Assembly (NCBI GenBank): GCA_044238605.1
Contig: JBIICY010000013.1
Location: 1-35,526 of the forward strand
Reading direction: 5' to 3'
DNA length: 35,526 bases
Source: Patescibacteria group bacterium
Lineage (GTDB): Bacteria; Bacteroidota; Ignavibacteria; Kapaibacteriales; Kapaibacteriaceae
The translations under genes and the position numbers were made by a program. This document shows positions 7,428 to 35,526 of the stretch, in pieces. A model generated the notes under the pieces. That model saw nothing but the letters and a program-made list of their open reading frames with translations. It had not been told where the DNA came from and made no database searches. Numbering within the stretch: position 1 is the stretch's first letter; each line of letters begins with the position of its first letter.

Positions 7428-7508
7428 AGAAACAGAATACAGTCGTGAACAGAAAGGTATATCTACGTTCACTGTGTATTGTGACAACCATTACGTCACA
7501 ATCGGGGG
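7354..7508. repeat. copy A of a ~155-bp direct repeat (partner at 11557..11710)
   Basis: Direct comparison with 11557-11710. A 55-bp core is identical (aatacagtcgtgaacagaaaggtatatctacgttcactgtgtattgtgacaacca). The flanks are ~85% identical. An 11-nt cassette differs at almost every base (gttgtacttca here vs atcaaacattg in copy B). Confidence 0.9.
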
Positions 7509-11041: not shown

Positions 11042-11105
11042 AGAGCAGCGAGCAGCGAATAGAAAGCAGCGAGCAGCGAGTAGCAAACAGCGAGTAGCGA
11101 GTACC
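11042..11105. repeat. AGCGAGY heptamer satellite (9 units) beginning immediately after stop codon
   Basis: agagcagcgagcagcgaatagaaagcagcgagcagcgagtagcaaacagcgagtagcgagtaccgagt, followed by the hairpin gtttacttcgtaaac. Confidence 0.85.
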
Positions 11106-11112
11106 GAGTGGT

Positions 11113-11630: not shown

Positions 11631-11710
11631 GGAAACATAATACAGTCGTGAACAGAAAGGTATATCTACGTTCACTGTGTATTGTGACAACCAAAACGTG
11701 ACAATTGGGG
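11557..11710. repeat. copy B of the ~155-bp direct repeat (partner 7354..7508)
   Basis: See copy A. Read on the minus strand, the core contains TTGTCA-16nt-TAGATA, a sigma70-like -35/-10 pointing into the RelE/ParE-like gene. An imperfect inverted repeat ACAGTcgTGAAC...GTTCACTGT is also present. The two copies bracket 7509-11556. Confidence 0.9.
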
Positions 11711-14272: not shown

Positions 14273-14312
14273 CCACTCGGCACTCGCTACTCGGCACTCG
14301 CTACTCGGTACT
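14273..14312. repeat. heptamer satellite ACTCGSY x5.5 (reverse-complement orientation of AGCGAGY)
   Basis: ccactcggcactcgctactcggcactcgctactcggtactc, ending at the stop codon of the GT2 gene. Confidence 0.8.
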
Positions 14313-18525: not shown

Positions 18526-18608
18526 GATAAAGCAGCGAGCAGCGAGTAGCGAACAGCGAGCAGCGAACAATTAGACGTACTCGCTGCTCGCTGTTCGCTG
18601 CTCGCTAC
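18526..18608. terminator. 83-bp perfect palindrome built from AGCGAGY heptamers filling the gap between convergent stop codons (bidirectional terminator candidate)
   Basis: ataaagcagcgagcagcgagtagcgaacagcgagcagcgaacaattagacgtactcgctgctcgctgttcgctgctcgctactc. The left arm is AGCGAGY units, the right arm is their reverse complement, and the loop is aattagacgta. It abuts the stop at 18525 on the left and the stop at 18609 on the right. Confidence 0.7.
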
Positions 18609-23289: not shown

Positions 23290-23382
23290 AGGGACAAGGG
23301 ACTAGGGACAAGGGACTAGGGACAAGGGACTAGGGACAAGGGACTAGGGACAAGGGACTAGGGACTAGGTACGGGGGTACGG
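23290..23382. repeat. 14-mer tandem satellite (GGGACAAGGGACTA x6) directly abutting the dnaE start codon
   Basis: agggacaagggactagggacaagggactagggacaagggacta... followed by gggactaggtacgggggtacgg. It occupies the entire space between the upstream small-gene stop (23383) and the dnaE ATG (23289). Confidence 0.9.
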
Positions 23383-23661
23383 TTATTTGAGGCGTTTGAT
23401 TTGTTCTGAAAGGGTTTGTTCGATAGCCCCCTTAGCAGCAGAGCCAAAGAACGAGAGTTCGATATCGATGTCGACGAAGTTGTCGCGAAGCGTAATCGTG
23501 CCGTGTCCGAGTTTGCCGGAGGCGTGGAGCACGTTGCCCTTCCATTCGTGGGTGGAGACCAGCATGGACAGTTCTGGACGCGTGAGCACCTTGCTATCGA
23601 TTAGCAGGCGCATTTCCATGGCTGTCTTTGAGGTCTCGATGGTTTGTTTAATGTTGGCCAT
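23383..23661 (-). CDS. small conserved protein, possibly polyhydroxyalkanoate-system family (TIGR02610-like)
   Basis: 92 aa. MANIKQTIETSKTAMEMRLLID...HEWKGNVLHASGKLGHGTITLRDNFVDIDIELSFFGSAAKGAIEQTL loosely fits the W.G..L.F.R.Gv.G.I.V....V.V...LG......K..IE pattern of that family. The assignment is tentative. Confidence 0.3.
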   Translation of the reverse strand: MANIKQTIETSKTAMEMRLLIDSKVLTRPELSMLVSTHEWKGNVLHASGKLGHGTITLRDNFVDIDIELSFFGSAAKGAIEQTLSEQIKRLK

Positions 23662-23691
23662 AGTGATGAGTACGGGGCTTGTGGTGACGGA

Positions 23692-25860
23692 TTATTGCAC
23701 GATCAGTGCCGACGTTGCAATGCGTGATCCATTGTTGGCCGTTGCCGCAACGGTGTAGTGTCCGGCAGGTAGACTTGATATGTCGAGCTGCATAGGCCCT
23801 GCTAGGCCCGTGCCAACGGGTGCAACGAGTACTGTTGATCCCTGTACATCCACAACGGTCAGATACTGCACGTTCGTAACTCCCTCGCCAAACACCACCG
23901 ATACCATGCCCTGTGTTGCAGGTTGCGGCATAATGGTGATTGTGCGTTCGCTGTGTGATTCTTCGTTCACGCCAACAGTTTCAAACATGATTGGACGGTT
24001 TACCGATACGTTCTCAGGATGCGTGCTGTCGCGGTTATCGCATGGCAATAGTTCGTTGCGGTAGTACTGCGTAAGGACATGGTACTCACCGCTGTTGCAT
24101 TCACCGGTTTCGTTGTAGACAACGAGGTCTCCAAAGATGCGCACGGTGCCGCCGAGCTTGTAGTTGTATACCTGTGAGCATCCGCCGAGTAATGCCTTAC
24201 CCTTGATCGTATTGTTCTGCGCAAAGCACTGATCCTTGATCACTGCTGAGTCCGTAAGCGTGCCGCCGAGCACAAAGGCGTTGTCCGTTACGCGGGCGTT
24301 GCCGGAGATTGTTGCGTCATGCACAAATGTATGACCATCGATGCGGGCGTTGCCCGAGAGCTTGCTTGCACCAGAGACAATAGCACGAGGACCAACGTAA
24401 ACCGACGCCTCGACCGTGGCGCGGTCATCAACCCAGCCCCCTCCATTTGCATGACGGCGTCCGGCTGCTCTGCGCAGTTGTGGACGCACTAGTTCGGGGT
24501 CTTGATAACCCTCGGGCACAGCATTAGTCAGGCGCACTTCATACGGATAGTGATATCGTTTCGGGTTGCCGTTCCATGTATTGTTCAGCGCCGGATTTGC
24601 ATGCATGCTGTCAACCGGCGCACCGAGCACAACCAGATAGAGCTTTGCATCATCAGGTGTGAGCGTGATCTCGATAGTGCTTCGTGGATCAGCGTGCACC
24701 GTGCCGCGTCTGTTTTCCGTGCCGTCTGCACGTTCTGTCACAAATCCGTAGCGCCAACCAGCGTGATCGTTTACCTCGGTGTGACCAATAAACTGCACAC
24801 GCACCGGCTTTGAGCGGTCATCCGGATAGAGCGGCACAACATTGTATCCATAATCTTGAGGCGCATTGTACGGGTCCGAGTAATACCTGCGCTGCGTTGT
24901 ATCGATTGCACGGAGCACATCGTAGGTGCGCTGAGCAAAGATGCGACCCCAATCAGCATTGAGCCGGTCTCGGCGGGAATTGCGCAAATACGAGCCCCAT
25001 TGCTTCATCGGATAGTTCCACGTAGCAGCATTGCGTGCATAGTCGAACATGTAGTCATTAAACTCGGACTGCGTCATACCGGCCAGACGCCTAAGTGTCT
25101 GCAGCGGATATTCAAGGGGCTTCCATTCCGTCCACAAGCGGCTAACCATATCTAGCCCCTTTGTAGAATGAATGTGAAACAAGAAGTGATAGCCCTCGTA
25201 GTTGAATTTCCAATCAGGCTCGAGCATCAGATAGTGATGCGCATCGATGTCGGACGAAACTGCCTGAGGATAGATCGCATTGCGCACAAAGTTGGCATGG
25301 GTCTCGTAGAAGAGTCCGTCGTTATCATAAATAGCTTTACTACCGCGTGACGGATTCTGATTGTCGATATGGAACATCGCCTGCAGCGAGTGTGTAAACT
25401 CATGAGCAATCACGCCACCATCGCGCGTGGCACCTGGATGCACCCAGAACGCTCCAATCGAATCATCTACAGCCCAGCCATTTGCCCAGCCTTCTGGACC
25501 GCCCTTACCATACGTGTTGTACATCACGATCACGTACTTGTAGAGGTTAGCCTTTGAGGAGGGGGCTGTGTTGATCATCCCCATCTCCATGCAACGGTCG
25601 TAGACATACTCCATGGTGTCGAGCACCTGCTTGGGATCGAACCGCAAATCTGGATTTGCAAACTTCGATGGGTCGGTGCCGACGGAGTCGCCCCAGATCA
25701 TCAGGAAGTTCTTGCTCTGAGCAGTCTTTGTCCACGTAAACTGACGTCCCTCTACCGTCGTGGTATCACGGATGTACGCCGGCACATAGGCCCGCTTTTG
25801 CGCGATTAGGGAGCTGCCTGCAGCGATGCAGATACATACAAGAAGGACAAGATGGTTCAT
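23692..25860 (-). CDS. T9SS-secreted zinc metallopeptidase (HEXXH) with beta-helix repeats and C-terminal type IX sorting domain
   Basis: ATG at 25860 gives the signal peptide MNHLVLLVCICIAAGSSLIAQ. The zincin motif is VIAHEFTHSLQ. Left-handed-helix-like repeats GNARIDGHTFVHDATISGNARVTDNAFVLGG follow. The C-terminus YLTVVDVQGSTVLV...GHYTVAATANNGSRIATSALIVQ is typical of T9SS CTDs. The start overlaps the permease stop as ATGA. Confidence 0.65.
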   Translation of the reverse strand: MNHLVLLVCICIAAGSSLIAQKRAYVPAYIRDTTTVEGRQFTWTKTAQSKNFLMIWGDSVGTDPSKFANPDLRFDPKQVLDTMEYVYDRCMEMGMINTAPSSKANLYKYVIVMYNTYGKGGPEGWANGWAVDDSIGAFWVHPGATRDGGVIAHEFTHSLQAMFHIDNQNPSRGSKAIYDNDGLFYETHANFVRNAIYPQAVSSDIDAHHYLMLEPDWKFNYEGYHFLFHIHSTKGLDMVSRLWTEWKPLEYPLQTLRRLAGMTQSEFNDYMFDYARNAATWNYPMKQWGSYLRNSRRDRLNADWGRIFAQRTYDVLRAIDTTQRRYYSDPYNAPQDYGYNVVPLYPDDRSKPVRVQFIGHTEVNDHAGWRYGFVTERADGTENRRGTVHADPRSTIEITLTPDDAKLYLVVLGAPVDSMHANPALNNTWNGNPKRYHYPYEVRLTNAVPEGYQDPELVRPQLRRAAGRRHANGGGWVDDRATVEASVYVGPRAIVSGASKLSGNARIDGHTFVHDATISGNARVTDNAFVLGGTLTDSAVIKDQCFAQNNTIKGKALLGGCSQVYNYKLGGTVRIFGDLVVYNETGECNSGEYHVLTQYYRNELLPCDNRDSTHPENVSVNRPIMFETVGVNEESHSERTITIMPQPATQGMVSVVFGEGVTNVQYLTVVDVQGSTVLVAPVGTGLAGPMQLDISSLPAGHYTVAATANNGSRIATSALIVQ

Positions 25861-27212
25861 GAAGTAGCCTTTCGTCCATTGCGGAGCATGATCATGCCGA
25901 TACCAATGATGCCTGCAAAGAACAACACGCCCATAATGGCAGCGTTGGTATCGAACATGAAGATATTGAGCGATGTAAATGCACACGATCCAATGAAGAT
26001 CGCGGCGGCAATGTGGTTTCGAAGTTTAATGCGCTCTGAGCCAAGACGATAGATCGCAGCAGCGCTTACGGCAAGGCCTATTGCATCGATAAAGATGGTG
26101 TAGTTCAGAATGGTCTCAAACGACTCGCCCAGGTACACACTCAACACCGAGAGCGCCGTAAAGGCAATCAGCGAACCCTGCTGCACTCCGTTTACAGAAG
26201 TTTTTCCTGCAAGCCCCTTGGGAAGAACACCGTCTTCGCTCATGGCGTTGATCACGCGTGGGTTGGAGAGCATGGCAACGTTTACGTAGCCAAAGACGGA
26301 GATAACAAGGACAGTGGAGAGGATAACGGCGCCTTGCGGACCAAACATCTTCTCGACCACCAAGGCGGCTATCGATGAACTATTGGCTAGTGTGTCAAAC
26401 CCAAGCACGTGAACATAGGCCATGTTGGCAAGCAGGTAGATCGCCGTAATCAACGCAACGCCGATCATGATGGCAAGGGGCATTGTCCGCGTACTATCCT
26501 TGATCTCACCACCAAAGTTGATCGTGGACTGATAGCCACCAAACGTAAACGAGACAGCAATAAGGGCAAGTCCGAAGGACTCCCAAGGTCCTTGCGTGTG
26601 CACCACACGTGAAGCCAGCGTTTGGGTTGCCGGTTCTACGTAGGCAAGTGCTGCGATGATACAGGCAAGCATCAGTACCTTTACACCGATCAGGACATTC
26701 TGCACCTTCGTGCTTGCGCGCAGGCCCAGCATGTTGAGTCCATAGAGTGCAACGATCATTCCCGTAGCCGTGATTGACGTATCAATTCCGGGCAGTCCGC
26801 TGGCAATGTACTCTGCACCGATGATGGCCACACCCGCAGCTGAGGCCGCGTTGGAGGCCAGGATAATGGTGTTTACTGCGAAGGCGATAACCGGGTGATA
26901 GGCATGAGCGAATACGCGATAGTACGCGCCGGTAACCGGCATGCGACGTCCCACCTCGGCAAACGTCAGAGCTCCGGCAAGAGCAAAGACGCCCCCCGTG
27001 ATCCAGGCAAGGTAGAACAGCGTGGGGTCACCGGAGCGCAGCGCAACGGTTGCAGGAGTCCGAAAGATGCCCATGCCAATCACCAGACTGATCACCAGCA
27101 TCACAACATCGAACATCCCAAGTTTAAACCCTGATTTCGTCACCCCAAGCCCCCTGAATAATCGCATCCAATTTACACGCTGCGAGTAGTTTTGTGTCAT
27201 GAAACTTCTCAC
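25857..27212 (-). CDS. APC-superfamily amino-acid permease
   Basis: 451 aa, 12 TM. The N-terminus GMFDVVMLVISLVIGMGIFRTPATVA and the overall layout are typical of APC amino-acid transporters. Confidence 0.75.
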   Translation of the reverse strand: MRSFMTQNYSQRVNWMRLFRGLGVTKSGFKLGMFDVVMLVISLVIGMGIFRTPATVALRSGDPTLFYLAWITGGVFALAGALTFAEVGRRMPVTGAYYRVFAHAYHPVIAFAVNTIILASNAASAAGVAIIGAEYIASGLPGIDTSITATGMIVALYGLNMLGLRASTKVQNVLIGVKVLMLACIIAALAYVEPATQTLASRVVHTQGPWESFGLALIAVSFTFGGYQSTINFGGEIKDSTRTMPLAIMIGVALITAIYLLANMAYVHVLGFDTLANSSSIAALVVEKMFGPQGAVILSTVLVISVFGYVNVAMLSNPRVINAMSEDGVLPKGLAGKTSVNGVQQGSLIAFTALSVLSVYLGESFETILNYTIFIDAIGLAVSAAAIYRLGSERIKLRNHIAAAIFIGSCAFTSLNIFMFDTNAAIMGVLFFAGIIGIGMIMLRNGRKATS

Positions 27213-28872
27213 CCTGATATCAACATTAACCCTTTGCCTAAGCCCCGCATTGTCTCAGCAGTGGCAAGGCCGCACGATGCAGTGGATGCGCTCTGGATCG
27301 CGGGTGTTTAGCTCGCCCGAGTTGCGCGTCTACCTCGACTCGCTGGGGGCCGATCCAACGGGTGCAATGCCTTCGGATGACGCCATGACACAGGCCTTGT
27401 CAACCGCTCAGGGAGAGGGAGCAACGATTGTGCTTGGCGCAGGCACCTACATGTTTAGGCGTCCGCTGAACATCCCTTCCAACACCACCATCCAGGGTCA
27501 GGGGGCTGATGCCACCAAGCTTACCTTCAACAATCTTGGAGAGGTAGACTGCATCCGTATCCAGGGCGGAATAACGCGTGCACTCTACCCCTTGGTGCAG
27601 CCGTTGAAGCGGGGGGACTCGCTCCTGTACTTCGACGGAGGCGTGATGGAGCCGGGAGCATTGCTGCGCATCGTGCTGAACGACTCCGACTACGTCTACA
27701 GCGATTGGGCACGGGGCTCTGTAGGACAAGTTGTGGAAGTGCGCAGCAGTATCAATCAGGCAACAATTCTGGATACGCCGCTGCGGTTTAGTGCTAGTAT
27801 GAACCGCAATCCGCGGTGCATCAGAATTCTTCCGGCCCAGAACATCCGTCTACGTTGCATGAGTATTGAGCGCACGGATTCTACCGTGGGGCAGACGGCC
27901 AACATCCGTGTTGCCTATGCGCGCGATGTTGTTATTGATGGTGTCCGCAGCCGCAACACCAACTTTGGTCATATCGTAATCGAAGCATCAGCCCGCGTCA
28001 CCGTAACGCGCTGCGACATCGCCGAGAGTTTCGGCTATGGAGGGGGCGGACGTGGCTACGGCGTGGTGTGTCAGTTCACAGCCAGCGACTGCCGCATCGA
28101 GGATAACATCTTCAGTGATCTGCGTCATTCAATGCTCATGCAAGCCGGTGCCAACGGCAACGTCTTTGCCTACAACTCCTCTGTAAACGCCCGGTGGACA
28201 GAATTCCCGAACGATGCAGCCGGGGATGTAGTCTTCCATGGCAACTGGGTCTTTGGCAACCTCGTAGAAGGCAACGATGTGTGCCATATCGTTGTCGACA
28301 ATTCCCACGGCGCCAACGGCTGGTTCAATACCATCCTGCGCAACCGCTCCCGCGAGTACGGACTCTTCATGGGCGCATCACCCTATGCAGACTCCACAAC
28401 GATCATGGGCAATGAGATCACCAACACAGGTCTTATCAAGGGGCTCTTCATCATCGGTGGTGCTGGACTTGTAAACATCGGTAACATCGTGAAAGGAAAA
28501 CTCACGCCCCCTCAACTATCCATCGTGCCACCTGCATCGTTTCTCTACTCTATGCGTCCACCTTCCTACCAAGGCAGCATATGGCCGCCGCACGGCGCAA
28601 TGGACCCCGCCCAGCGAGACACAATACCCGCACGCATGCGCATGCTGGTATCCAAGCAGACATGTCCGTGCGAGGCCGACATCCCAACAACAGTTGCAGA
28701 TCGTACACCATTTACACCAAACTTCGACGGTGTGAATCAGGTGCTTGTGTATGATGTGCAGGGACGGTTAGTCTTTGAGGGATCCGTGCAGAAATATCGA
28801 TCATGGAACCACGATCGTTTGGTGATATCACAACACATTGCGAACGGCACGTTGTTGATGTTGATGCGGTAG
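27199..28872 (+). CDS. secreted right-handed beta-helix (pectate-lyase fold) protein with T9SS-type C-terminal domain
   Basis: Signal peptide MKLLTLISTLTLCLSPALSQ. Pectin-lyase-fold markers are present (TIVLGAGTYMFRRPLNIPSNTTIQGQG; repeated NxxG/VxxG rungs). The C-terminal QVLVYDVQGRLVFEGSV motif is typical of T9SS CTDs. Confidence 0.55.
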   Translation: MKLLTLISTLTLCLSPALSQQWQGRTMQWMRSGSRVFSSPELRVYLDSLGADPTGAMPSDDAMTQALSTAQGEGATIVLGAGTYMFRRPLNIPSNTTIQGQGADATKLTFNNLGEVDCIRIQGGITRALYPLVQPLKRGDSLLYFDGGVMEPGALLRIVLNDSDYVYSDWARGSVGQVVEVRSSINQATILDTPLRFSASMNRNPRCIRILPAQNIRLRCMSIERTDSTVGQTANIRVAYARDVVIDGVRSRNTNFGHIVIEASARVTVTRCDIAESFGYGGGGRGYGVVCQFTASDCRIEDNIFSDLRHSMLMQAGANGNVFAYNSSVNARWTEFPNDAAGDVVFHGNWVFGNLVEGNDVCHIVVDNSHGANGWFNTILRNRSREYGLFMGASPYADSTTIMGNEITNTGLIKGLFIIGGAGLVNIGNIVKGKLTPPQLSIVPPASFLYSMRPPSYQGSIWPPHGAMDPAQRDTIPARMRMLVSKQTCPCEADIPTTVADRTPFTPNFDGVNQVLVYDVQGRLVFEGSVQKYRSWNHDRLVISQHIANGTLLMLMR

Positions 28873-28933
28873 GTAGGGGCGAGCCGGTGGCTCGCCCGTT
28901 GTTGGTTCGGTAGGGGCGAGCCGATGGCTCGCC
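28868..28933 (+). repeat. two tandem stop-embedded REP-like hairpins (GGTAGGGGCGAGCC-grtg-GCTCGCCCGTTG)
   Basis: gcggtaggtaggggcgagccggtggctcgcccgttgttggttcggtaggggcgagccgatggctcgcccgttgg. The first copy starts on the gene's TAG stop. Confidence 0.75.
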
Positions 28934-28940
28934 CGTTGGG

Positions 28941-29648
28941 TACACAAGGGTACGTGGTGCCCAATGCGCACGTAAGGTTCCTCGGCACTTCGTGCCTCGG
29001 AATGACGCCCGCGCAGATTGTTTTTAATTGGAGATCAGCGCGCCTACGGCGCGCTGATCCAATAACATTTAAAGCTGCACCAGCGTCATTCCGAGCGAAG
29101 CGAGGAACCTAGGGACAGGGCACAGGGGTACGTGGTGCCCAATGCGCACGTAAGGTTCCTCGGCACTTCGTGCCTCGGAATGACGCCCGCGCAGATTGTT
29201 GTTGATTGGAGAGCAGCGCGCCTGCGGCGCGCTGCTCCATTAACATCTTAAGCTGCACGAGCGTCATTCCGAGCGAAGCGAGGAACCTTGGGACAGGGCA
29301 CAAGGTATTTGGTCGCCCAATGTGCACGTAAGGTTCCTCGGCACTTCGTGCCTCGGAATGACGTCCGCGCAGATTGTTTTTAATTGGAGATCAGCGCGCC
29401 TACGGCGCGCTGCTTCATTAACATTTAAAGCTGCACGAGCGTCATTCCGAGCGAAGCGAGGAACCTAGGGACAGGGCACAAGGTATTTGGTCGCCCAATG
29501 CGCACGTGAGGTTCCTCGGCACTTCGTGCCTCGGAATGACGCCCGCGCAGATTGTTTTTAACTGGAGAGCAGCGCGCCTACGGCGCGCTGCTCCATTAAC
29601 ATTTAAAGCTGCACGAGCGTCATTCCGAGCGAAGCGAGGAACCTAGCA
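28941..29648 (+). repeat. tandem array of four ~178-bp palindromic structured elements with TIR-like ends
   Basis: Unit starts at 28951, 29129, 29306 and 29484. The left end GGTTCCTCGGCACTTCGTGCCTCGGAATGACGCC and the right end GCGTCATTCCGAGCGAAGCGAGGAACC are imperfect inverted repeats. The central hairpin stems are GATCAGCGCGCC-tac-GGCGCGCTGATC (unit 1) and GAGCAGCGCGCC-tgc/tac-GGCGCGCTGCTC (units 2 and 4). Unit 3 is a hybrid. Confidence 0.9.
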
Positions 29649-29692
29649 GGTGCAATATCTTCACGTATTAGGCTTTCGTTTAAATTGCCCGT

Positions 29693-30085
29693 ATGGCAAA
29701 AGCTCAGCTCAAAACAGCGCAGACAGACGCCTCGGTGCAGGCGTTTCTCGATAAAATCAGTAAGCCCAACGTACTTGCAGACTGCGAAGAGTTGATCGCC
29801 CTCATGTCCAAGCTTACAAAACACCCACCTGCGATGTGGGGACCATCCATCATTGGATTTGGTAAGCAGGAACTCAAGTACGAAAGTGGGCGCACGCTCG
29901 ACTGGTTTGTCATGGGCTTTTCGCCGCGCGCAACAAGTCTGGTGATTTACACCAACATCAATCTGGAAGAGGCCACGGAAACGCTCGCCTCCTTAGGACC
30001 CCACAAAACAGGCAAAGGGTGTTTGTATATCAAGCGCATGTCCGATATCGACACAAAGGTGTTGGAGAAGTTTTTGGCGAGGTAG
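29693..30085 (+). CDS. DUF1801 (YdhG-like) domain protein
   Basis: 130 aa. MAKAQLKTAQTDASVQAFLDKI...AMWGPSIIGFGKQELKYESGRTLDWFVMGFSPRATSLVIY loosely resembles the DUF1801 block (YGMPAF.......l.yfaafk.hiGfYP). The assignment is tentative. Confidence 0.4.
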   Translation: MAKAQLKTAQTDASVQAFLDKISKPNVLADCEELIALMSKLTKHPPAMWGPSIIGFGKQELKYESGRTLDWFVMGFSPRATSLVIYTNINLEEATETLASLGPHKTGKGCLYIKRMSDIDTKVLEKFLAR

Positions 30086-30112
30086 GGGCGACCCTATGTG
30101 GTCGCCCTATGT
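30081..30112 (+). repeat. stop-embedded REP-like hairpin variant (AGG TAG GGGCGACC ctatgt GGTCGCCC)
   Basis: gaggtaggggcgaccctatgtggtcgccctatg. The 8-bp stem carries compensatory changes relative to the GGGCGAGCC/GGCTCGCCC copies. Confidence 0.6.
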
Positions 30113-30420
30113 GTGCGGTGGCCCGCCCAGTCGATTATCCCCCCATACGACACATTACGTCGCATCGAGAAGTAGTATTGTAAAAGCAATTGTATATAGA
30201 GGCACGATATATCGTGCCGGTAAATACAAGCAGCAAAGAATGTTGGATGTATGCGATGCACGCAATAAATATCGTTAGCATCGTGTTTAGATAAAGAAGA
30301 CGCTTATCTCTGGGCGACAACGTAGAATCGCCCCTTCTATGGTAGATATTGCCGCTTCCCGCCTCCGCGGGAATGACGAGTGCCCCCTCCGTACCCATAG
30401 TCCATCTTGGACTCCGCACT

Positions 30421-30500
30421 CCGTAATCCGTACCCCGTAACCAGTAACCAGTAACCAGTAACCAGTAACCAGTACCCCGTCCCTAGTCCCTAGTCCCTAA
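30421..30500 (+). repeat. heptamer satellites (CGTAAYC, CAGTAAC x5, GTCCCTA x3) immediately upstream of the S41 peptidase RBS/start
   Basis: ccgtaatccgtaccccgtaaccagtaaccagtaaccagtaaccagtaaccagtaccccgtccctagtccctagtccctaac, then ctcccGGAGGttctcATG (30516). Confidence 0.9.
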
Positions 30501-30515: not shown

Positions 30516-32939
30516 ATGCATCCGCGCATCCTTGCCATCGCGATTGTTTCATGGGTGCTATGCGCGCCCCTTGCGCTCCAGGCGGACACAGCATCGGCGA
30601 TGCGGTATATCATGGAGCACTACGTGCACCCGTTGCCGCCTGGCAGCGAGAAGCTTCCGTATACGAAGTTTGATAAGCTGCTGGATAAGTGGACGTGGAT
30701 CATTTCCAACGAAGAGTGGTCAACGATGGCCAATAGCCTCCAGGGCAAACACACTGGTAAGGTTGGTGTTATGCTGCTGAAGCTTCCATACGGAGAGCGT
30801 GTTACGCATGTAACAGCGGGTTCTCCGGGATACTACACAGGCCTTATGATCGGCGATGTTGTAGAGTCATGGGGCGATGTAAGCGTAGTCTATCCCGACA
30901 CGACCGCAACGGCTGTGCGCAGGTATAGTCCTGCCGGACAATACATCATGCTGGATGTGCGCCGCGGAGATTCCTGCATGCGCATTCCAACATTCCGAGA
31001 AACATTCACAACAGATGCCGTCGATGTTGCCGTGCGCGGCAGAACGCTGGCCGTGCGCCTGGAGCAGTTCACAAGTGATATGCACAAGAACTTTACGATG
31101 AAGTGCTTTGGCATTGATCGCAGCAGCATTGATACGGTGATCTTTGATGTGCGAGACAACGGAGGCGGCTATGTGGACGCAGCACTGGCAATGATCGGGG
31201 AGTTTGTGAAGGAGGGAGACACCATGCTCTCGATGCATTTCCGCAACCGGACAGAATACAGCATTGCTGAGAGCACAGGCGATTGGTACGATCCGCGTCG
31301 TACGATCATCATCCTGCAGGACAGCGGTTCTGCATCAGCAAGCGAGCTTTTTGCCGGCGGTATGAGAGAGCGTGCACGCGCCATCATTGTGGGTCAGCGC
31401 AGCTACGGCAAGGGGCGAGTATTGAACCGCATTCCAGCTAGGGTGTTTGGGTCATTCAATGACCCCAAGATTGGCGGACTCAGCATCACGATTGCGCTCT
31501 ACAAAGCAGCCGGTAAGATCGATGTAGACAGCATTGGTATACCTGCATCAGTGGCAATTCCAGAGCAAGCAGCTGCATGGCTGCCTCCAACAGTTGATAT
31601 AATCGCTCTGCGCAACCGCACGCGCTATCCATCTGAGGAGCTCATCGATAGCATCAACCGTCTTGGCAGGGGAAATGCTGCGGGCCTTGTCTGGGGAGAT
31701 CGTATCTCGGCCCGAGTAGCAATAGATGATATCGCTTCCATGCGCGAGATGCTTCCAGTGCCTGTATGGCGCTGCCTTGCAGATCATGGAGCTGTGCACA
31801 CACAGTTTAGCCGTCAGGATGAAGAGCAGATCCGTCGGGCCATTTACGACGGCATCATCGGCAGCGTGCCAGACAGCGTGCTCCGCATCGAACCTGTCGA
31901 GAAGATGCTCGAGCACCTGCAGATCAACATCCGCATCCGCAGCAAGGAACAGGTGTTTGCTGAGCACACACTTGCCCCCAAGCTTATGAACACGCTCGGC
32001 CTGCGTTTGCGTCAGCACCAGAATGCCATCATTGTAGACCACGTTGCTCGCGGGTCAGCAGCATACAATGCAGGCGTCTGCGTAGGGGACAACATTGTAA
32101 GCGTAGAGAACTTTGCAACAGGCGGGGGCATCGACCGTGCAATAGCGCTGCTTGTGAACAGCAAGCCCCATGACGGAATCCTCGGCGTAGAAGTCCGCCG
32201 CGGCAACCGTCAGTTCACACTCCCCATCAGCCAAAGCTCAGCATCCGCATCACTTGTTACCTCAACGATCGACGATGACGTTGCCTACATCGCCCTGCAC
32301 AGCTTCTCGGTAGAAGCCGGCGCCCAGGCCCGCAAGAACATCATCGACGCCGACCGCCAGGGGGCTAGCAGCATCGTTATTGACTTGCGCGGCATTGCGG
32401 GTAACAACGCCCGCAGCGTAATCCACCTGCTGGACCTCTTTGGCAAAGGCAAACCGCTTGGTGCATCAGCCCCCTACATCCTTGTAGACCAGTTCACAGC
32501 AGGCGCGCCCGAGTACTTTGCAAGCCGCATGCAGCGAGAGCACGGCGCCGTGATCGTTGGCACAGCAACAGCTGGACGCATGGAGCGCGAGCTTCGCATG
32601 GGCATCAGCAACGAATCAGACATCATCATCACACGTCAGCTCGATACCCTCAGCAACGCCACATCCATCTCACCCGACATCCAGCTTACATGGCCTGAGC
32701 GCTCACTGGATGCCATCCGCACAGCCGCATCACACTTCAGAGACGTTGTCAACATGCGCAAGGACGCAACGGATATCACAGACAACGAGCTCGACAACAT
32801 CTACGCACGCATCCCCAACGCACAAAGCATCGACCGGGGCGTCCTCTCCGAAGCAATCTTCGGCAGCGCCGCCAAGTATTACCAGATAGCGCCTATCGTT
32901 CGCCGCGTGGTAAACAACAAACGATGGACGAGGAGATAG
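30516..32939 (+). CDS. S41-family peptidase (two S41 catalytic-domain copies plus PDZ-like region), secreted
   Basis: Signal peptide MHPRILAIAIVSWVLCAPLALQA. S41 blocks VIFDVRDNGGGYVDAALAMIGEF and IVIDLRGIAGNNARSVIHLLDLFG, each followed by Ser-rich SxSASE motifs (SGSASASELFA). The PDZ-like segment is HVTAGSPGYYTGLMIGDVVESWGDVSV. Confidence 0.7.
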   Translation: MHPRILAIAIVSWVLCAPLALQADTASAMRYIMEHYVHPLPPGSEKLPYTKFDKLLDKWTWIISNEEWSTMANSLQGKHTGKVGVMLLKLPYGERVTHVTAGSPGYYTGLMIGDVVESWGDVSVVYPDTTATAVRRYSPAGQYIMLDVRRGDSCMRIPTFRETFTTDAVDVAVRGRTLAVRLEQFTSDMHKNFTMKCFGIDRSSIDTVIFDVRDNGGGYVDAALAMIGEFVKEGDTMLSMHFRNRTEYSIAESTGDWYDPRRTIIILQDSGSASASELFAGGMRERARAIIVGQRSYGKGRVLNRIPARVFGSFNDPKIGGLSITIALYKAAGKIDVDSIGIPASVAIPEQAAAWLPPTVDIIALRNRTRYPSEELIDSINRLGRGNAAGLVWGDRISARVAIDDIASMREMLPVPVWRCLADHGAVHTQFSRQDEEQIRRAIYDGIIGSVPDSVLRIEPVEKMLEHLQINIRIRSKEQVFAEHTLAPKLMNTLGLRLRQHQNAIIVDHVARGSAAYNAGVCVGDNIVSVENFATGGGIDRAIALLVNSKPHDGILGVEVRRGNRQFTLPISQSSASASLVTSTIDDDVAYIALHSFSVEAGAQARKNIIDADRQGASSIVIDLRGIAGNNARSVIHLLDLFGKGKPLGASAPYILVDQFTAGAPEYFASRMQREHGAVIVGTATAGRMERELRMGISNESDIIITRQLDTLSNATSISPDIQLTWPERSLDAIRTAASHFRDVVNMRKDATDITDNELDNIYARIPNAQSIDRGVLSEAIFGSAAKYYQIAPIVRRVVNNKRWTRR

Positions 32940-33008
32940 CAGCGAGTAGCGAACTATTAGCAGCGAGCAGCGAGCAGCTAGCAGCGAACAGCGAGTAGCG
33001 AACAGCGA
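32940..33008. repeat. AGCGAGY heptamer satellite beginning immediately after the stop codon
   Basis: agcagcgagtagcgaactattagcagcgagcagcgagcagctagcagcgaacagcgagtagcgaacagcgagtagc. Confidence 0.85.
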
Positions 33009-33009
33009 G

Positions 33010-33180
33010 TAGCAGAGCTCCCTCGGCACTATGTGCCTCGGGATGACGCCCACACGTTGCTTTTTAGGTAGGCGCAGCGCGCCTGCGGCGCGCTGCGCCA
33101 TGTTATAAACCGCCTCTAAGCGGCGTCATTCCGAGCGAAGCGAGGAACCTCGGCGTCAATCCGAGCGAAGCGAGGAACCA
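33010..33180 (+). repeat. solo copy of the TIR-bounded palindromic element (family of the 28941-29648 array), with duplicated right end
   Basis: Left end ctccctcggcactatgtgcctcgggatgacgccc. Central 13-bp perfect stem GGCGCAGCGCGCC-tgc-GGCGCGCTGCGCC. The right end ggcgtcattccgagcgaagcgaggaacc occurs twice (33125-33180). Confidence 0.85.
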
Positions 33181-33208
33181 TGTGTAACAATTATCCTGGA
33201 GTTATGTC

Positions 33209-34678
33209 ATGAACCAGCACATCATTCATCTCGTCAGCACGATTATCATTTGCGTGTCTTTCGGACTCGCTGCTAGCTGCTCGCTGTTCGCTGCTCCGTC
33301 TGCGGGACTCGCTGCTCGCTGTTCGCTGTTCGCTGCTCCGTCTGCGGGACTCGCTACTCGCTGCTCGCTGTTCGCTGCTCCGTCTCCGGGACTCGCTGCT
33401 CGCTGTTCGCTGCTCGCTGCTTCTTCTGATGATTCCGAGCTCCGCAAGATCATCAAGGATCGGTCTCTCAAGCAGCTTACGCCTGATGCGCTGAATAACA
33501 TCAACGAGGATAACCTCAAGCAGAATCTTGATCGGTACTCAACGGTGTATGATCAGGCAGTTGGCAGGTATCGTAGGGCGGAGATCGATGGGAACGAGCC
33601 ATTTGGCATGGACGCCGACAAGTACCCAATGTACTATCCCGTTACGATCTCGGAGATCTTGGTTAGCGGCACGGCGTACATCGATGGCCTTGCCGTGGGT
33701 GATGAGATCATCGCGGTTAATGGCGATGCTGTAACGAGCTCATGGGACATGTTCGAGCATCAGGCTATGAACACAGAGCGTAAGCTGGACGTCACGATCA
33801 AGCGGGCAAAGGTGGAGTATACGGTAACGCTCTATCCGCGCGGACGCCGCTTCCGCAGCGTTGTGGGGATGATGAGCAACGGCATTGGCTACGTCAACGT
33901 GGGTGGCTTTACATCTGGCAGTGCGGAGGCAATGCGCACGCTGTTTACAGCATTCAAAGAGCAGGGGGCTACGCGCTACATTATTGATCTACGTGGCACA
34001 CCTGGCGGACGCATGGACGAGTGTCTGGAGATGCTCGAATTGTTTTCGCACAAGGGAGATACACTCGTCATCATCGACAATGCAGCTGGCGAGGAGCGGG
34101 TCTTTCTCTCGCATACTACAGGCCCCTTCTATGGAGAAAGCGTTGATATTCTTGTAGACAACAAGAGCGTCTCTGCAAGCGAGATGTTTGCCCTGGTTGC
34201 TCAGGACAACTCCTTTGGACGCATCATCGGCACAGTCACAGAGGGTAAGGGGCGCTACAACATTATGGAAGAACTCTCGGACGGACGCGTAGTGCAGCTT
34301 ACAACTGAGCGCTACTACTCACGCAAGCATCGGTCTATCGACTATGAATACGGCTCGGACGGCGTGCGGCCAGATGCCGAACATAGGTGGACATCACGCC
34401 GATACCTCTGGATCCAGCGTCAGGGCAACGCTCTTGGCATACCACCTAGAGACATGCGCGCACTTCGGACGGTCTACCCCGAGCCCAACGCCGCCGCACT
34501 TGACTCACTGCTTGGCGTCTATCGCATAGACTCCACACCAGACAACCGCAACTACTACGCAGTTGTGGTATGGGGCAGACTCGGCATGGCTGTAGAAGCA
34601 TTCAACTACTATGCCGCAAAGACAGAACAACCAGTACCTCCTTCACCGTCACGGTCAAGAAAGGGCAGGCGATTGTAA
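33209..34678 (+). CDS. S41-family peptidase with N-terminal 3x 14-aa peptide repeat encoded by the AGCGAGY/GCTCGCT satellite
   Basis: Signal peptide MNQHIIHLVSTIIICVSFGLAA. Residues ~22-70 read CSLFAAPSAGLAARCSLFAAPSAGLATRCSLFAAPSPGLAARCSLLAASS, encoded by gctcgctgttcgctgctccgtctgcgggactcgct x3. S41 blocks YIIDLRGTPGGRMDECLEMLELF and NKSVSASEMFALV. Confidence 0.7.
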   Translation: MNQHIIHLVSTIIICVSFGLAASCSLFAAPSAGLAARCSLFAAPSAGLATRCSLFAAPSPGLAARCSLLAASSDDSELRKIIKDRSLKQLTPDALNNINEDNLKQNLDRYSTVYDQAVGRYRRAEIDGNEPFGMDADKYPMYYPVTISEILVSGTAYIDGLAVGDEIIAVNGDAVTSSWDMFEHQAMNTERKLDVTIKRAKVEYTVTLYPRGRRFRSVVGMMSNGIGYVNVGGFTSGSAEAMRTLFTAFKEQGATRYIIDLRGTPGGRMDECLEMLELFSHKGDTLVIIDNAAGEERVFLSHTTGPFYGESVDILVDNKSVSASEMFALVAQDNSFGRIIGTVTEGKGRYNIMEELSDGRVVQLTTERYYSRKHRSIDYEYGSDGVRPDAEHRWTSRRYLWIQRQGNALGIPPRDMRALRTVYPEPNAAALDSLLGVYRIDSTPDNRNYYAVVVWGRLGMAVEAFNYYAAKTEQPVPPSPSRSRKGRRL

Positions 34679-34681
34679 GCA

Positions 34682-34900
34682 CAGCTTCCTCGGCACTACG
34701 TGCCTCGGAAAGAAATCCTCCCGCATCAGTTTCCTCGGCACTTCGTGCCTCGGAAAGACGCCCACACGTTGTTTTTTTGTTGGGCGCAGCGCACCTTCGG
34801 TGCGCAGCGCCATGTAGTTATCTCCTGCAGCGGCGTCATTCCGAGCGAAGCGAGGAACCCTGAGCGTCATTCCGAGCGCAGTCTGGAATCTGGCGTCACC
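34682..34900 (+). repeat. solo copy of the TIR-bounded palindromic element with duplicated left and right ends
   Basis: Two left ends (cttcctcggcactacgtgcctcggaaag / tttcctcggcacttcgtgcctcggaaagacgccc). Central stem GGCGCAGCGCACC-ttc-GGTGCGCAGCGCC, 12 of 13 bp with a covarying A-T pair. Two right ends (ggcgtcattccgagcgaagcgaggaacc / gagcgtcattccgagcgcagtctggaatc). Confidence 0.85.
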
Positions 34901-34994
34901 TCAGCATGAGAGGCTGGACTGTGATACGTGACACCATACGTCGTCTATCGCCTGATATTTACGTGGTCAGTCACAATTAACATTCGAGGTAGCT

Positions 34995-35222
34995 ATGAGT
35001 ACTATGTGGATGGTAACTATACTGTTGTTGTCATTGTTTGTTCAGTTTCAAATCGGTCGCGCCTCAAGCGGTGACGAAAAGTCAGGAAAGAAGAAGACGG
35101 TAGTAACTCCGAAGGATACGACTAATCCAGACCTATGGATCGAGCGTAACATCGATGACATGGAAGACGACACAACATACTCGTCACGGATATTGTCAGA
35201 GTTGACGAAACAAACTATTTGA
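34995..35222 (+). CDS. small secreted hypothetical protein in AT-rich segment
   Basis: MSTMWMVTILLLSLFVQFQIGRASSGDEKSGKKKTVVTPKDTTNPDLWIERNIDDMEDD... It has an N-terminal hydrophobic signal-like segment, low GC and no family match. Coding status is uncertain. Confidence 0.3.
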   Translation: MSTMWMVTILLLSLFVQFQIGRASSGDEKSGKKKTVVTPKDTTNPDLWIERNIDDMEDDTTYSSRILSELTKQTI

Positions 35223-35399
35223 TTTGTATATATAAATGGTTTTATTAAGTCAACCACTTTTTATTTGGTTCTGGGATACTTTTGCCAGGAGGAAACTCGG
35301 ATTTATTCATGTGCAATTTTTCACCAGATGTTAAACGATATGTTGTTGATTTTTTAACATAATCAGATGCTCGTGATTTTATGATATCTAGATAATCAG

Positions 35400-35526
35400 T
35401 GATCTTCCCCCCATTTAGTTGACAGTAAGTCGATCTCTAATCACATATTTGGATTGGAGGAAACGATGGGAAATGACAACAGGGGTCGTCGCTATGACGA
35501 CGAGTTCAGAGCAGCGGCAGTTGCGC
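35400..35526 (+). mobile_element. left end of an IS3-family insertion sequence (IRL plus start of transposase OrfA), continues beyond window
   Basis: TGATCTTCCCCC at 35400 resembles IS3-group left inverted repeats (TGATCTTACCC...). A strong RBS ttGGAGGaaacgATG sits at 35465. The ORF MGNDNRGRRYDDEFRAAAVA matches the conserved IS3 OrfA N-terminus (..RRrYs.EFK.eAV) from memory. Confidence 0.5.

What the first reader, a model, noticed from the sequence alone, without database searches (positions are those of the whole stretch)
28941..29648. Four-unit tandem array of a ~178-bp palindromic element with compensatory stem mutations; two more solo copies at 33010-33180 and 34682-34900
Each unit runs from a ~32-nt left end (GGTTCCTCGGCACTTCGTGCCTCGGAATGACGCC) to an imperfectly inverted right end (GCGTCATTCCGAGCGAAGCGAGGAACC).

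The centre holds a 12-13-bp GC-rich hairpin, and the whole unit can fold as one long imperfect hairpin.

The central stem sequence differs between copies but stays paired:
- GATCAGCGCGCC/GGCGCGCTGATC (unit 1)
- GAGCAGCGCGCC/GGCGCGCTGCTC (units 2 and 4)
- GGCGCAGCGCGCC/GGCGCGCTGCGCC (33068)
- GGCGCAGCGCACC/GGTGCGCAGCGCC (34784)

Unit 3 is a left-type-1/right-type-2 hybrid with a broken stem, which suggests recombination between units.

Covariation implies selection on the fold, which could be a structured RNA, a hairpin recognised by a protein, or a MITE that transposes as a hairpin.

All six copies have the same orientation and sit just 3' of + strand secreted-protein genes (T9SS beta-helix protein, S41 peptidases).

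Solo copies carry duplicated ends (two left or two right termini), which is a hallmark of abortive or nested transposition.

I am not aware of this architecture as a described element family.
Basis: seen in the sequence. Interest (0 to 1): 0.75.

Follow-up and report, generated by a model that had tools for sequence, protein, structure and literature searches.

The report
Tandem array of nuclease-target hairpin repeats
The four-unit array and two solo copies are real, but they belong to a described class of bacterial intergenic hairpin repeats (CGTC-tagged REPs, like the Neisseria NTS/dRS3 repeats cut by the small Ssn nucleases), here as a variant in a freshwater Kapaibacterium.

Summary
In detail: 28943-29646 is a 178-bp x 4.0 tandem array, with two further copies at 33017-33182 and 34684-34893.

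Each 138-nt "palindromic element" is a pair of inverted short hairpin modules. Both modules read CGTC-ATTCC-GA-stem-GAA-stem-GA-GGAAC-C, one on each strand, with the CGTC tags facing inward.

This is the architecture of CGTC-tagged REP dimers (Di Nocera 2013). Its flanks match the Neisseria NTS/dRS3 repeat, which the GIY-YIG nuclease SsnA binds and cuts as single-stranded DNA (Chenal 2025).

The exact 23-mer of the right end occurs in more than 120 species genomes from about nine phyla. In five independent loci this motif subtype flanks single-domain GIY-YIG genes, often as tandem arrays.

Only the central 12-14-bp GC stem covaries. The long outer stem is invariant, so it gives no evidence for or against a fold.

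Strain comparisons show 4, 3, 1 or 0 units at the array site and 2 versus 6 left modules at another site. One copy is absent in a 92%-identical relative. This points to slippage or unequal recombination, not nested transposition.

No Rfam family, terminator or target-site duplication was found. An ssn gene in this organism could not be checked.

Verdict: a variant of a known kind, of moderate interest.

The parts
28943..29646 (+). Tandem array, 178 bp x 4.0. Each unit is a 41-nt linker plus a 138-nt dimer of inverted hairpin modules. The modules alternate in orientation at 78/48-nt spacing, which is BIME-like.
28976..29009 (-). Left module of unit 1. On the minus strand it reads (GG)CGTC-ATTCC-GA-GGCAC-GAA-GTGCC-GA-GGAAC-C: a CGTC-tagged REP with a long inner stem. 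The same module lies at 29154-29187, 29332-29365 and 29510-29543.
29084..29112 (+). Right module of unit 1: CGTC-ATTCC-GA-GC-GAA-GC-GA-GGAAC-CTAG, NTS-like. The same module lies at 29262-29290, 29440-29468 and 29618-29646.
   Evidence: compared with the NTS consensus
29033..29059 (.). Central 12-bp GC hairpin in the spacer of unit 1 (GATCAGCGCGCC-TAC-GGCGCGCTGATC). Equivalents lie at 29211-29237, 29389-29415 (hybrid, broken) and 29567-29593. It is optional: absent from the orthologous site in L124.
29113..29153 (+). Inter-dimer linker, also at 28935-28975. It contains a TAGGGAC-like heptamer and GGTAYGTGGTSGCCCAATG, which is half of a GTAG-type REP. Because it is duplicated together with the dimer, the array grew by tandem duplication and not by separate insertions.
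33017..33182 (+). Solo dimer 1: left module 33017-33050, central 13-bp hairpin 33071-33099, two right modules 33124-33152 and 33154-33182. It is absent from the 92%-identical relative L192.
34684..34893 (+). Solo dimer 2: two left modules (34684-34717, degenerate; 34729-34762), central hairpin 34783-34811 (one A.A mismatch), and right modules 34834-34862 and 34865-34893 (degenerate). The orthologue in L192 has about 6 left modules.
30352..30380 (-). Separate near-canonical NTS/dRS3-type module on the minus strand: CGTCATTCCCGCGGAGGCGGGAAG.
28873..28934 (+). Two GTAG-tagged REP hairpins (28873-28897 and 28910-28934, GTAG-GGGCGAGCC-N4-GGCTCGCCC) between the stop codon of the beta-helix gene and the array. 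The first is terminator-like.

Best explanation
**What it is.** Each "178-bp palindromic element" is a dimer of two short REP-type hairpin modules in inverted orientation, with their CGTC tags facing each other. They are separated by a 75-78-nt spacer that carries its own GC hairpin.

**Which family.** The modules belong to the CGTC-tagged REP superfamily. Its best-studied member is the Neisseria NTS/dRS3 repeat.

**How it most likely works (inferred).**
- When the DNA is single-stranded (during replication, repair or DNA uptake), each module folds into a small hairpin: ATTCC / GGAA(C/T) outer stem, tandem sheared G.A pairs, inner stem and GAA loop.
- A small single-domain GIY-YIG nuclease of the Ssn family binds it, reading the GTC just 5' and the C just 3' of the hairpin. 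It nicks a few nucleotides upstream of the tag.
- In a tags-inward dimer, both predicted cuts fall at the edges of the spacer, one on each strand.

**How the array arose.** The array, the runs of extra left or right modules and the hybrid units arise secondarily. The cause is replication slippage or unequal recombination between these highly similar hairpin-forming modules, which makes the loci hypervariable between strains.

**Shown versus inferred.**
- Shown here: the anatomy, the family resemblance, the genomic association of this motif subtype with GIY-YIG genes in other genomes, and the strain polymorphism.
- Inferred: that this organism has a cognate Ssn, that it cuts these sites, and what the consequence is. 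Restriction of recombination or transformation across flanked genes, as in Neisseria, is one candidate.
For: **Module anatomy and match to the published families**
- All 13 modules in the window carry CGTC + ATTCC...GGAA: 14 hits to the relaxed pattern against 0.16 expected.
- The published NTS is CGTCATTCCCGCGMAVGCGGGAATCYRG. The window's right end is CGTCATTCC-GAGCGAAGCGA-GGAACC-NNG.
- It keeps the GTC that governs SsnA cleavage and the C after the palindrome that governs binding.
- Di Nocera 2013 describes CGTC REPs with 8-9-bp stems starting AT. They occur mostly as HH dimers and heterodimers, have 20-100-bp spacers that sometimes hold stem-loops, and have no dedicated transposase.

**Distribution**
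Hosts include Acidobacteriota, Verrucomicrobiota, Bacteroidota, Armatimonadota, Chloroflexota, Gemmatimonadota and Proteobacteria.
- It also occurs in 12 viral contigs.

**Association with GIY-YIG genes**
- Single-domain GIY-YIG genes (Pfam PF01541, E = 1e-15 and 6e-14) are flanked by this very subtype in L169. That locus includes the window's exact left-module core.
- The same holds for L045, L262, L263/L264 and L267/L268.
- In L262, L263/L264 and L267/L268, the only genuine motif copies in the fetched flanks (20 kb for L262, L263 and L267) lie within 55-420 nt of the gene. The one other match to the relaxed pattern looks like chance.
- Tandem arrays of such modules next to these genes: 105 nt x 4.3, 110 nt x 5.0, 42 nt x 10.2.

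**Strain variation**
- Array site: 4 units (window), 3 (L001), 1 short dimer without central hairpin (L124, 88% identical, syntenic), 0 (L005/L008).
- L192 lacks the 33017 copy and has 5.7 left modules where the window has 2.
Against: - No ssn-like gene lies in the 35.5-kb window (tblastn). The rest of the genome could not be searched, so the cognate enzyme is unproven for this organism.
- The modules fail the published degenerate SRM pattern: 0 hits. The tandem G.A pairs replace G-C pairs in the stem.
- They would also have been discarded by Di Nocera's rule of at most one mismatch.
- In Neisseria, changing the palindrome sequence while keeping the hairpin abolished SsnA activity. A different, co-evolved Ssn would therefore be required.
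- The covarying central hairpin is not explained by Ssn recognition.
- Copy numbers come from short-read metagenome assemblies, which can miscount tandem repeats.
Confidence: 0.6

Rival explanations
1. RNA-level element. The dimers are transcribed as part of the 3' UTR of the upstream gene. They act as very stable stem-loops that protect the mRNA from 3' exonucleases, attenuate read-through or are processed by RNase III. This is the role proposed for E. coli REP/BIME and for many REPs by Di Nocera 2013. It could coexist with the DNA-level role.
For: - All six window copies lie 5-77 nt downstream of + strand genes and are on the + strand.
- The fold is very stable, z about -11.
- The central stem covaries.
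- A few G.U-compatible pairs occur on the + strand (GU or UG at three pairs).
- REPs in general sit preferentially between unidirectional or convergent genes.
Against: - No Rfam family matches at gathering threshold or at E <= 10.
- No T-tract terminator lies in the elements. A terminator-like GTAG-REP hairpin lies upstream of the array, so transcripts may end before reaching it.
- In related contigs the dimer is inverted relative to the upstream gene, or lies 5' of a gene (L146, L212, L243).
- The fold is at least as stable on the minus strand.
- The outer stem shows no covariation.
- SsnA does not bind the RNA form of NTS.
Confidence: 0.15
2. A MITE: a non-autonomous transposon with terminal inverted repeats, mobilised in trans by a conventional transposase, like Correia, ERIC or RUP elements. 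Duplicated ends would then reflect nested or abortive insertion.
For: - The ends are inverted and the element is about 138 nt and multi-copy.
- There is a presence/absence polymorphism at 33017 versus L192.
- In an Acidobacteriaceae genome the same motif is embedded in a 250-500-bp repeat with 93-100% identical copies.
Against: - No target-site duplication is visible at any of the three loci.
- The "empty" site in L192 is not a clean excision; its flanks differ.
- The "ends" also occur as singletons, tail-to-tail pairs and tandem runs across phyla, so they are not bound to one internal sequence.
- Numbers of end modules vary with a regular period.
- No protein recurs within 1.5 kb of 120 random copies.
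Confidence: 0.1
3. A REPIN mobilised by a RAYT (REP-associated tyrosine transposase of the IS200/IS605 type), as in Pseudomonas and E. coli.
For: - The two inverted REPs with a spacer form one long hairpin, which is exactly the REPIN layout.
- The same window holds classical GTAG-tagged REPs at 7270, 28873, 28910 and 30082, so a RAYT may exist in this genome.
- The central hairpin is preceded by GTAG in two copies.
Against: - The dimer modules carry CGTC tags, not GTAG tags.
- Di Nocera 2013 found no CGTC REP flanking any RAYT or other transposase gene.
- Here the subtype flanks GIY-YIG genes instead.
Confidence: 0.07

Closest known systems
Neisseria NTS / dRS3 repeats with SsnA (Chenal et al. 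2025, PMC11893778), including their clustering in intergenic mosaic regions
   Same: - Both share a 5' CGTCATTCC and a 3' GGAA(T/C)-C-..G, a small hairpin core, a defined orientation, an intergenic location and hundreds of copies.
- Both cluster around genes for surface or secreted proteins and next to strain-variable DNA.
- The motif subtype flanks single-domain GIY-YIG genes on both sides (L169, L045, L262, L263, L267).
   Different: - The inner stem has tandem G.A mismatches and a GAA loop instead of CGCG-MAV-GCG.
- It fails the published SRM search pattern.
- The last stem base is C rather than T in this lineage.
- The host is a freshwater Kapaibacterium (Bacteroidota).
- No enzyme was shown for this organism, and no biochemical test was done.
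CGTC-tagged REP families 1-4 (Di Nocera, De Gregorio, Rocco 2013, PMC3733652)
   Same: - Unpaired CGTC tag.
- Stem of about 9 positions starting AT.
- Short loop and short tail.
- Inverted dimers with tags facing each other, made of two different modules (heterodimers).
- Spacers of 20-100 bp, sometimes with a stem-loop.
- No adjacent transposase.
- Reported in Bacteroidetes and Chlorobi.
   Different: - The stem is interrupted by two non-Watson-Crick pairs. Such repeats were discarded by that study's filter.
- One module has a 5-bp inner stem.
- Whole dimers, and single modules, are amplified in tandem. "Grouped elements" were called rare for CGTC REPs outside Neisseria and Wolbachia.
E. coli BIMEs and Pseudomonas REPINs (GTAG REPs with RAYT)
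   Same: - Regularly spaced REPs in alternating orientation.
- Dimers able to fold into one long hairpin.
- Located after genes.
- Copy number variable between strains.
   Different: The tag is different (CGTC, not GTAG), and the presumed partner enzyme is different (a GIY-YIG nuclease rather than an HUH tyrosine transposase).
MITEs such as Correia, ERIC/IRU and RUP
   Same: Size of 100-180 bp, inverted ends, long imperfect hairpin, intergenic location.
   Different: - No target-site duplication.
- The ends are autonomous hairpin modules found alone in many phyla.
- The make-up is modular and of variable number.

Membership tests
CGTC-tagged REP superfamily (Di Nocera 2013) | Unpaired CGTC (or TGTC/CCTC) tag at one end of the hairpin | tested here: met
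   All right modules, and all left modules read on the minus strand, begin with CGTC. The exception is the degenerate copy at 34684.
CGTC-tagged REP superfamily (Di Nocera 2013) | Stem of 8-9 bp whose first two positions are complementary A/T; loop of 4-5 nt; about 3-nt tail | tested here: inconclusive
   - ATTCCGAGC / GCGAGGAAC gives 9 positions, but positions 6-7 are G.A / A.G.
- The first A faces C in this lineage; it faces T in the AATC variants of other phyla.
- The loop is GAA, or 5 nt if the closing C-G pair is counted.
- The tail is C-T/C-N.
- Figure 2 of the paper, which holds the consensus sequences, was not available.
CGTC-tagged REP superfamily (Di Nocera 2013) | Mostly inverted dimers with 20-100-bp spacers, often heterodimers; no linked transposase | tested here: met
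   - Six of six window copies are tags-inward dimers with 75-78-nt spacers. A short form has a 26-nt spacer (L124).
- The two modules differ in inner stem length.
- No transposase is adjacent.
- The paper's definition of "head" could not be read, so equating tags-inward with HH is an assumption.
Ssn-related motif (SRM) / NTS (Chenal 2025) | Match to the degenerate SRM pattern HGTCWYN(0-2)YYVSBRHN(0-5)WNVSBRGN(0-2)RNCYNB | tested here: not met
   0 matches in the window. The A of the G.A pair falls on an S position. The NTS-like copy at 30356 also fails, because its loop starts with G.
Ssn-related motif (SRM) / NTS (Chenal 2025) | Conserved GTC 5' of the palindrome and C 3' of it (the nucleotides critical for cleavage and binding); hairpin core ATTCC...GGAAT | tested here: met
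   CGTCATTCC and GGAAC-C are present in all intact modules.
Ssn-related motif (SRM) / NTS (Chenal 2025) | Motif copies flank the gene of a single-domain GIY-YIG (cd10448) protein | tested here: inconclusive
   - Met for this motif subtype in five other loci: L169, L045, L262, L263/L264, L267/L268.
- Assignment of those proteins to cd10448 could not be made; only Pfam GIY-YIG was shown.
- For the window's own organism no ssn gene could be looked for. There is none in the window.
Ssn-related motif (SRM) / NTS (Chenal 2025) | Bound and cut as single-stranded DNA, not as dsDNA or RNA, by the cognate Ssn | not testable with these tools
   Needs purified protein and oligonucleotides.
REPIN / RAYT system | GTAG tag on the REP, and a RAYT gene flanked by the same REPs | tested here: not met
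   The dimer modules carry CGTC. GTAG REPs in the window are separate hairpins. No Y1 transposase is in the window.
MITE | Terminal inverted repeats plus target-site duplication; a related autonomous IS | tested here: not met
   Inverted ends are present, but there is no duplication at the three loci and no clean empty site. No recurrent neighbouring gene was found in 120 loci.
BIME-like cluster | Regularly spaced REPs in alternating orientation | tested here: met
   Eight modules alternate in strand (- + - + - + - +) with gaps of 78 and 48 nt.
Any Rfam RNA family | Covariance-model match | tested here: not met
   0 matches at gathering thresholds over the whole window. Only chance-level hits at E <= 10.

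The most novel reading that the evidence does not exclude
The G.A-bulged CGTC module is an unrecognised, pan-bacterial branch of the Ssn-target repeats, kept letter-perfect over 23 nt in about nine phyla. In Bacteroidota, including Kapaibacteria, a cognate GIY-YIG nuclease may actively generate the hypervariable arrays and module runs by nicking at the spacer edges of tags-inward dimers. The covarying central GC hairpin would then be a functional third component. Its role could be a cruciform or replication-pausing element that brackets secreted-protein genes and the entry points of genomic islets.
Probability: 0.2. Interest if true: 0.6.

Novelty: new variant of a known kind. Interest (0 to 1): 0.35.

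Why it matters
- It links a striking raw-sequence feature to a repeat-nuclease partnership that was worked out only in 2025. It also suggests that this partnership reaches into Kapaibacteria, Chitinophagaceae, Acidobacteriota and other phyla through a motif subtype that both published search definitions miss.
- If a cognate Ssn exists, these arrays mark places where single-stranded DNA is cut. Here they coincide with strain-variable DNA next to secreted-protein genes. That would be relevant to how recombination and gene flow are shaped in uncultured freshwater bacteria.
- Such an enzyme would also add a new specificity to the toolbox of site-specific ssDNA nucleases.
- Practically, the repeats explain why assemblies of this lineage break at these loci.

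Tried and rejected
- **Rfam.** Gathering thresholds over the whole window and E <= 10 over the array gave nothing.
- **tRNA/tmRNA scan.** Nothing.
- **Literature search by motif sequence and by the peptides it would encode.** Only unrelated primer hits.
- **Exact-protein look-up of the 557-aa upstream gene.** Not on record. The DUF1801 gene worked instead.
- **Search for a protein recurring within 1.5 kb of 120 random motif copies.** None found. This fits a single-copy partner gene rather than an IS.
- **Published SRM pattern.** 0 hits.
- **Terminator and promoter scan.** No terminator inside the elements and no sigma-70-like promoter. Bacteroidota promoters are not covered by the scan.
- **Target-site duplications and a clean empty site.** Not found.
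- **Covariation of the outer stem.** None, because it does not vary.
- **Central hairpin as an independent repeat.** It was never seen outside a dimer.
- **Locating an ssn gene of the Kapaibacterium lineage.** Two homologue searches gave 3738 and 6452 relatives without organism labels.
- **Pfam on the two small ORFs that replace the array in L005/L008.** No family.
- **Integron attC and CRISPR readings.** Considered and dropped. There are no R'/R'' boxes and no unique spacers, and the flanked genes are ordinary chromosomal genes.
Full report
**1. The observation**

Tandem Repeats Finder reports one array at 28943-29646 with period 178, 4.0 copies and 93% matches. The right-end 25-mer occurs seven times in the window and the left-end 32-mer five times, each with at most one mismatch. 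None is expected in shuffles.

The 138-nt core of a unit folds into one long hairpin. The energy is -78 kcal/mol (z = -10.8) on the + strand. The fold is even more stable on the - strand, and it also forms as DNA.

The two further copies, their doubled ends, the central stem variants and the hybrid unit 3 are all as described. There is one correction: the stem at 34783-34811 has an A.A mismatch.

- a beta-helix protein (27199-28872);
- a DUF1801 protein (29693-30085);
- two S41 peptidases.

**2. Where the window comes from, and what relatives show**

The DUF1801 protein is found, letter for letter, on freshwater metagenome contigs. A pattern scan of species genomes returned L124, a Candidatus Kapaibacterium MAG from Lake Mendota. 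It is syntenic with window 23629-30114 at 86-89% identity.

The same intergenic site differs between these relatives:

| Source | State of the array site |
|---|---|
| Window | four units |
| L001 | three units, including the reciprocal of the window's hybrid unit |
| L124 | one short dimer with a 26-nt spacer and no central hairpin |
| L005 / L008 | no element; two small minus-strand ORFs of unknown family instead |

L192 is a 92%-identical relative of window 33164-34757, and it differs at both solo sites:
- It has no element between the two S41 genes, only heptamer repeats.
- At the third site it has a run of 5.7 left modules with a 45-nt period, where the window has two.

Other contigs of the lineage carry one to three right modules with a 30-38-nt period, and dimers with or without the central hairpin. 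The element is therefore modular: left module x 1-6, an optional central hairpin, and right module x 1-3. The 41-nt linker is duplicated together with the dimer in the array.

This pattern indicates slippage or unequal recombination rather than nested transposition. No target-site duplication or clean empty site was found.

**3. What the ends are**

Read on the strand that starts with the tag, both ends have the same plan.
- Right end: CGTC-ATTCC-GA-GC-GAA-GC-GA-GGAAC-C.
- Left end (minus strand): CGTC-ATTCC-GA-GGCAC-GAA-GTGCC-GA-GGAAC-C.

Each module is thus a small hairpin. It has an ATTCC/GGAA outer stem, two tandem G.A pairs, an inner stem of 2 or 5 bp and a GAA loop.

The motif is not private to this element. 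Most hits are in Acidobacteriota. Others are in Verrucomicrobiota, Bacteroidota, Armatimonadota, Chloroflexota, Gemmatimonadota, Proteobacteria and others. The AATC variant occurs in 12 viral contigs.

In those genomes the motif is a singleton, a pair in either orientation, or a tandem run. In one Acidobacteriaceae genome it is part of a 250-500-bp repeat.

**4. Comparison with what is known**

*CGTC-tagged REPs.* Di Nocera et al. 2013 (PMC3733652) defined a superfamily of CGTC-tagged REPs with these features:
- an unpaired CGTC/TGTC tag;
- stems of 8-9 bp beginning with A-T pairs;
- loops of 4-5 nt and a short tail;
- mostly HH dimers, frequently of two different modules;
- spacers of 20-100 bp that may hold stem-loops;
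- no dedicated transposase.

Hosts include Bacteroidetes and Chlorobi. Neisseria dRS3 is the CGTC-1 family.

*NTS and SsnA.* Chenal et al. 2025 (PMC11893778) showed that the longer Neisseria repeat NTS, CGTCATTCCCGCGMAVGCGGGAATCYRG, is bound and cut by SsnA.
- SsnA is a 94-aa single-domain GIY-YIG nuclease.
- It acts only on single-stranded DNA and only on the NTS strand.
- The GTC before the palindrome controls cleavage, and the C after it controls binding.
- The cut lies a few nucleotides upstream.
- Related motifs flank ssn genes in many phyla.

*How the window's modules compare.* They share the 5' CGTCATTCC, the 3' GGAA(T/C)-C and a G three positions further on. They differ in the inner stem, and for that reason they do not match the published degenerate SRM pattern (0 hits). 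A near-canonical NTS-type copy also sits in the window at 30352-30380 on the minus strand.

**5. Test of the link to GIY-YIG genes for this subtype**

Two motif-containing loci fetched by pattern scans for the motif, not for any gene, hold single-domain GIY-YIG genes next to clusters of the motif.
- L169 (96 aa, Pfam GIY-YIG E = 1.2e-15). It has modules on both sides. One is the window's left-module core, CCTCGGCACTTCGTGCCTCGGAATGAC.
- L045 from a Chitinophagaceae MAG (123 aa, E = 6.4e-14). A 110-nt x 5.0 array of CGTCATTCCGAGCGAAGCGAGGAACC units lies upstream.

I then started from homologues of these proteins, of which thousands exist, and fetched three more genomic contexts: Paraflavitalea soli L262, L263/L264 and L267/L268.
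- In each, the only convincing motif copies in the fetched flanks (20 kb for L262, L263 and L267) lie within 55-420 nt of the gene.
- They again form tandem arrays, for example 105 nt x 4.3 of tags-inward dimers and 42 nt x 10.2 of left-type modules.

So the association reported for SRMs also holds for the G.A-type subtype. Tandem arrays of dimers or modules are a normal manifestation of it in Bacteroidota.

I could not show an ssn gene in the Kapaibacterium lineage itself.

**6. Covariation**

| Stem | Pairing | Variation | Controls |
|---|---|---|---|
| Outer (28 pairs) | 94% of cells paired | 19 pairs never vary; one changes on both sides | not above shuffles |
| Central (14 pairs, 12 distinct copies) | 93.7% of cells paired | five pairs with changes on both sides (11 cells); a paired A-T insertion | 0 of 500 shuffles reach the score; slid controls give 0-3 |

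The outer stem's complementarity is a by-product of two inverted copies of one conserved motif. It is not evidence for selection on a long fold.

The hairpin potential of the central stem is actively maintained. With so few and related copies this supports the hairpin but does not prove RNA-level selection. Template-switch correction within DNA palindromes would give the same pattern.

The central hairpin is never found outside a dimer and is dispensable (L124, L190, L246, L257). In two copies it is preceded by GTAG, so it might be a degenerate GTAG-type REP nested in the spacer. That reading is unproven.

**7. RNA reading and other rivals**

No Rfam family matches. No T-tract terminator lies in the elements. 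The terminator-like hairpin is the GTAG REP upstream of the array.

In other contigs of the lineage the dimer is inverted relative to the upstream gene, or lies 5' of a gene. A role as a 3' UTR stabiliser cannot be excluded and could coexist, but it is not favoured.

The MITE and REPIN/RAYT readings fail on target-site duplication and on the tag respectively.

**8. Most likely mechanism**

- *Shown:* the array is a BIME-like cluster of CGTC-type REP dimers. Eight modules alternate in orientation with gaps of 78 and 48 nt.
- *Inferred from the family:* on single-stranded DNA each module folds and is recognised by a co-evolved Ssn-type GIY-YIG nuclease that nicks just upstream of the tag. In a tags-inward dimer the two nicks, one per strand, fall at the spacer edges.
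- *Inferred from strain comparisons:* similarity between modules drives slippage and unequal crossing-over, which gives the variable numbers and the hybrid units.

As with NTS and dRS3 in Neisseria, the copies bracket genes for secreted proteins and abut strain-variable DNA:
- the two-ORF cassette in L005/L008;
- a McrBC-like system downstream of the third site in L192 but not in the window.

**9. Verdict**

It is a variant of a known kind, not a new class. Its ends are CGTC-tagged REPs, that is NTS-like Ssn-related motifs.

The new points are modest:
- the G.A-bulged subtype and its letter-perfect spread over many phyla;
- its escape from both published search definitions;
- the covarying central hairpin;
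- its occurrence and hypervariability in Kapaibacteria.

Noticed in passing
window 286-380, 11038-11109, 14274-14313, 18531-18569, 23289-23369, 30421-30480, 32929-33018: Many intergenic regions hold tandem heptamer or 14-mer repeats (AGCAGCG, TAGGGAC(A), GTAACCA, CGTCATTGGTACTT). They are often directly next to the REP-type hairpins, and the same heptamers appear on either strand at different loci. This resembles the short tandemly repeated heptamers of cyanobacteria. Their lengths differ between strains.
   Followed up: partly
window 33263-33428, inside ORF 33209-34678: A 42-nt repeat built from CTCGCTG heptamers lies in frame just after the predicted signal peptide of the S41 peptidase. It encodes GLAARCSLFAAPSA about 4 times. 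The 92%-identical relative L192 has about 3 copies. This is an in-frame variable-number repeat in a secreted protease.
   Followed up: partly
window 7270-7294, 28873-28897, 28910-28934, 30082-30107: A second, classical repeat family: GTAG followed by a GC-rich palindrome (GTAG-GGGCGAGCC-N4-GGCTCGCCC), placed right after stop codons. This is the layout of RAYT-associated REPs. Half copies (GGTAYGTGGTCGCCCAATG) form the linker between the array units. No RAYT gene is in the window.
   Followed up: partly
window 30352-30380 (minus strand): A single near-canonical NTS/dRS3-type module, CGTCATTCCCGCGGAGGCGGGAAG. Two subtypes of the CGTC repeat therefore coexist in this genome.
   Followed up: partly
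L005 1-690 and L008 1-660 (alleles of window 28935-29690): In some strains the array site holds two small minus-strand ORFs (64 and 118 aa) with no Pfam match, between the same flanking genes. The layout looks like a toxin-antitoxin pair, but that was not established.
   Followed up: partly
L192 2100-6050 versus window 34894-35526: Downstream of the third repeat locus the relative carries three genes: an HTH gene, a McrB-like gene (MrcB_N + AAA_5) and a McrC-like gene (DUF2357 + PD-(D/E)XK). The window has unrelated AT-rich DNA, a 75-aa ORF and an ORF that runs off the end from 35466 (MGNDNRGRRYDDEFRAAAVA). From memory that N-terminus resembles an IS3-type OrfA; this was not tested. The repeat sits at the edge of a strain-variable islet.
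   Followed up: partly
window 7354-7507 and 11557-11710: A 154-nt direct repeat, 87% identical, 4.2 kb apart (family D9). It was not examined.
   Followed up: no
L027, L038, L043, L079, L100, L138, L139, L141 (one Acidobacteriaceae MAG): The same 23-mer is embedded in a 250-500-bp dispersed repeat with 93-100% identical copies. A GTCATCCCGAGC-type module lies further upstream. It may be a larger non-autonomous element built around the motif.
   Followed up: partly
proteins P0001-P0240 (homologues of the GIY-YIG genes): Most of these genes sit on very short contigs of about 1 kb. That would be expected if the flanking repeats break short-read assemblies.
   Followed up: no
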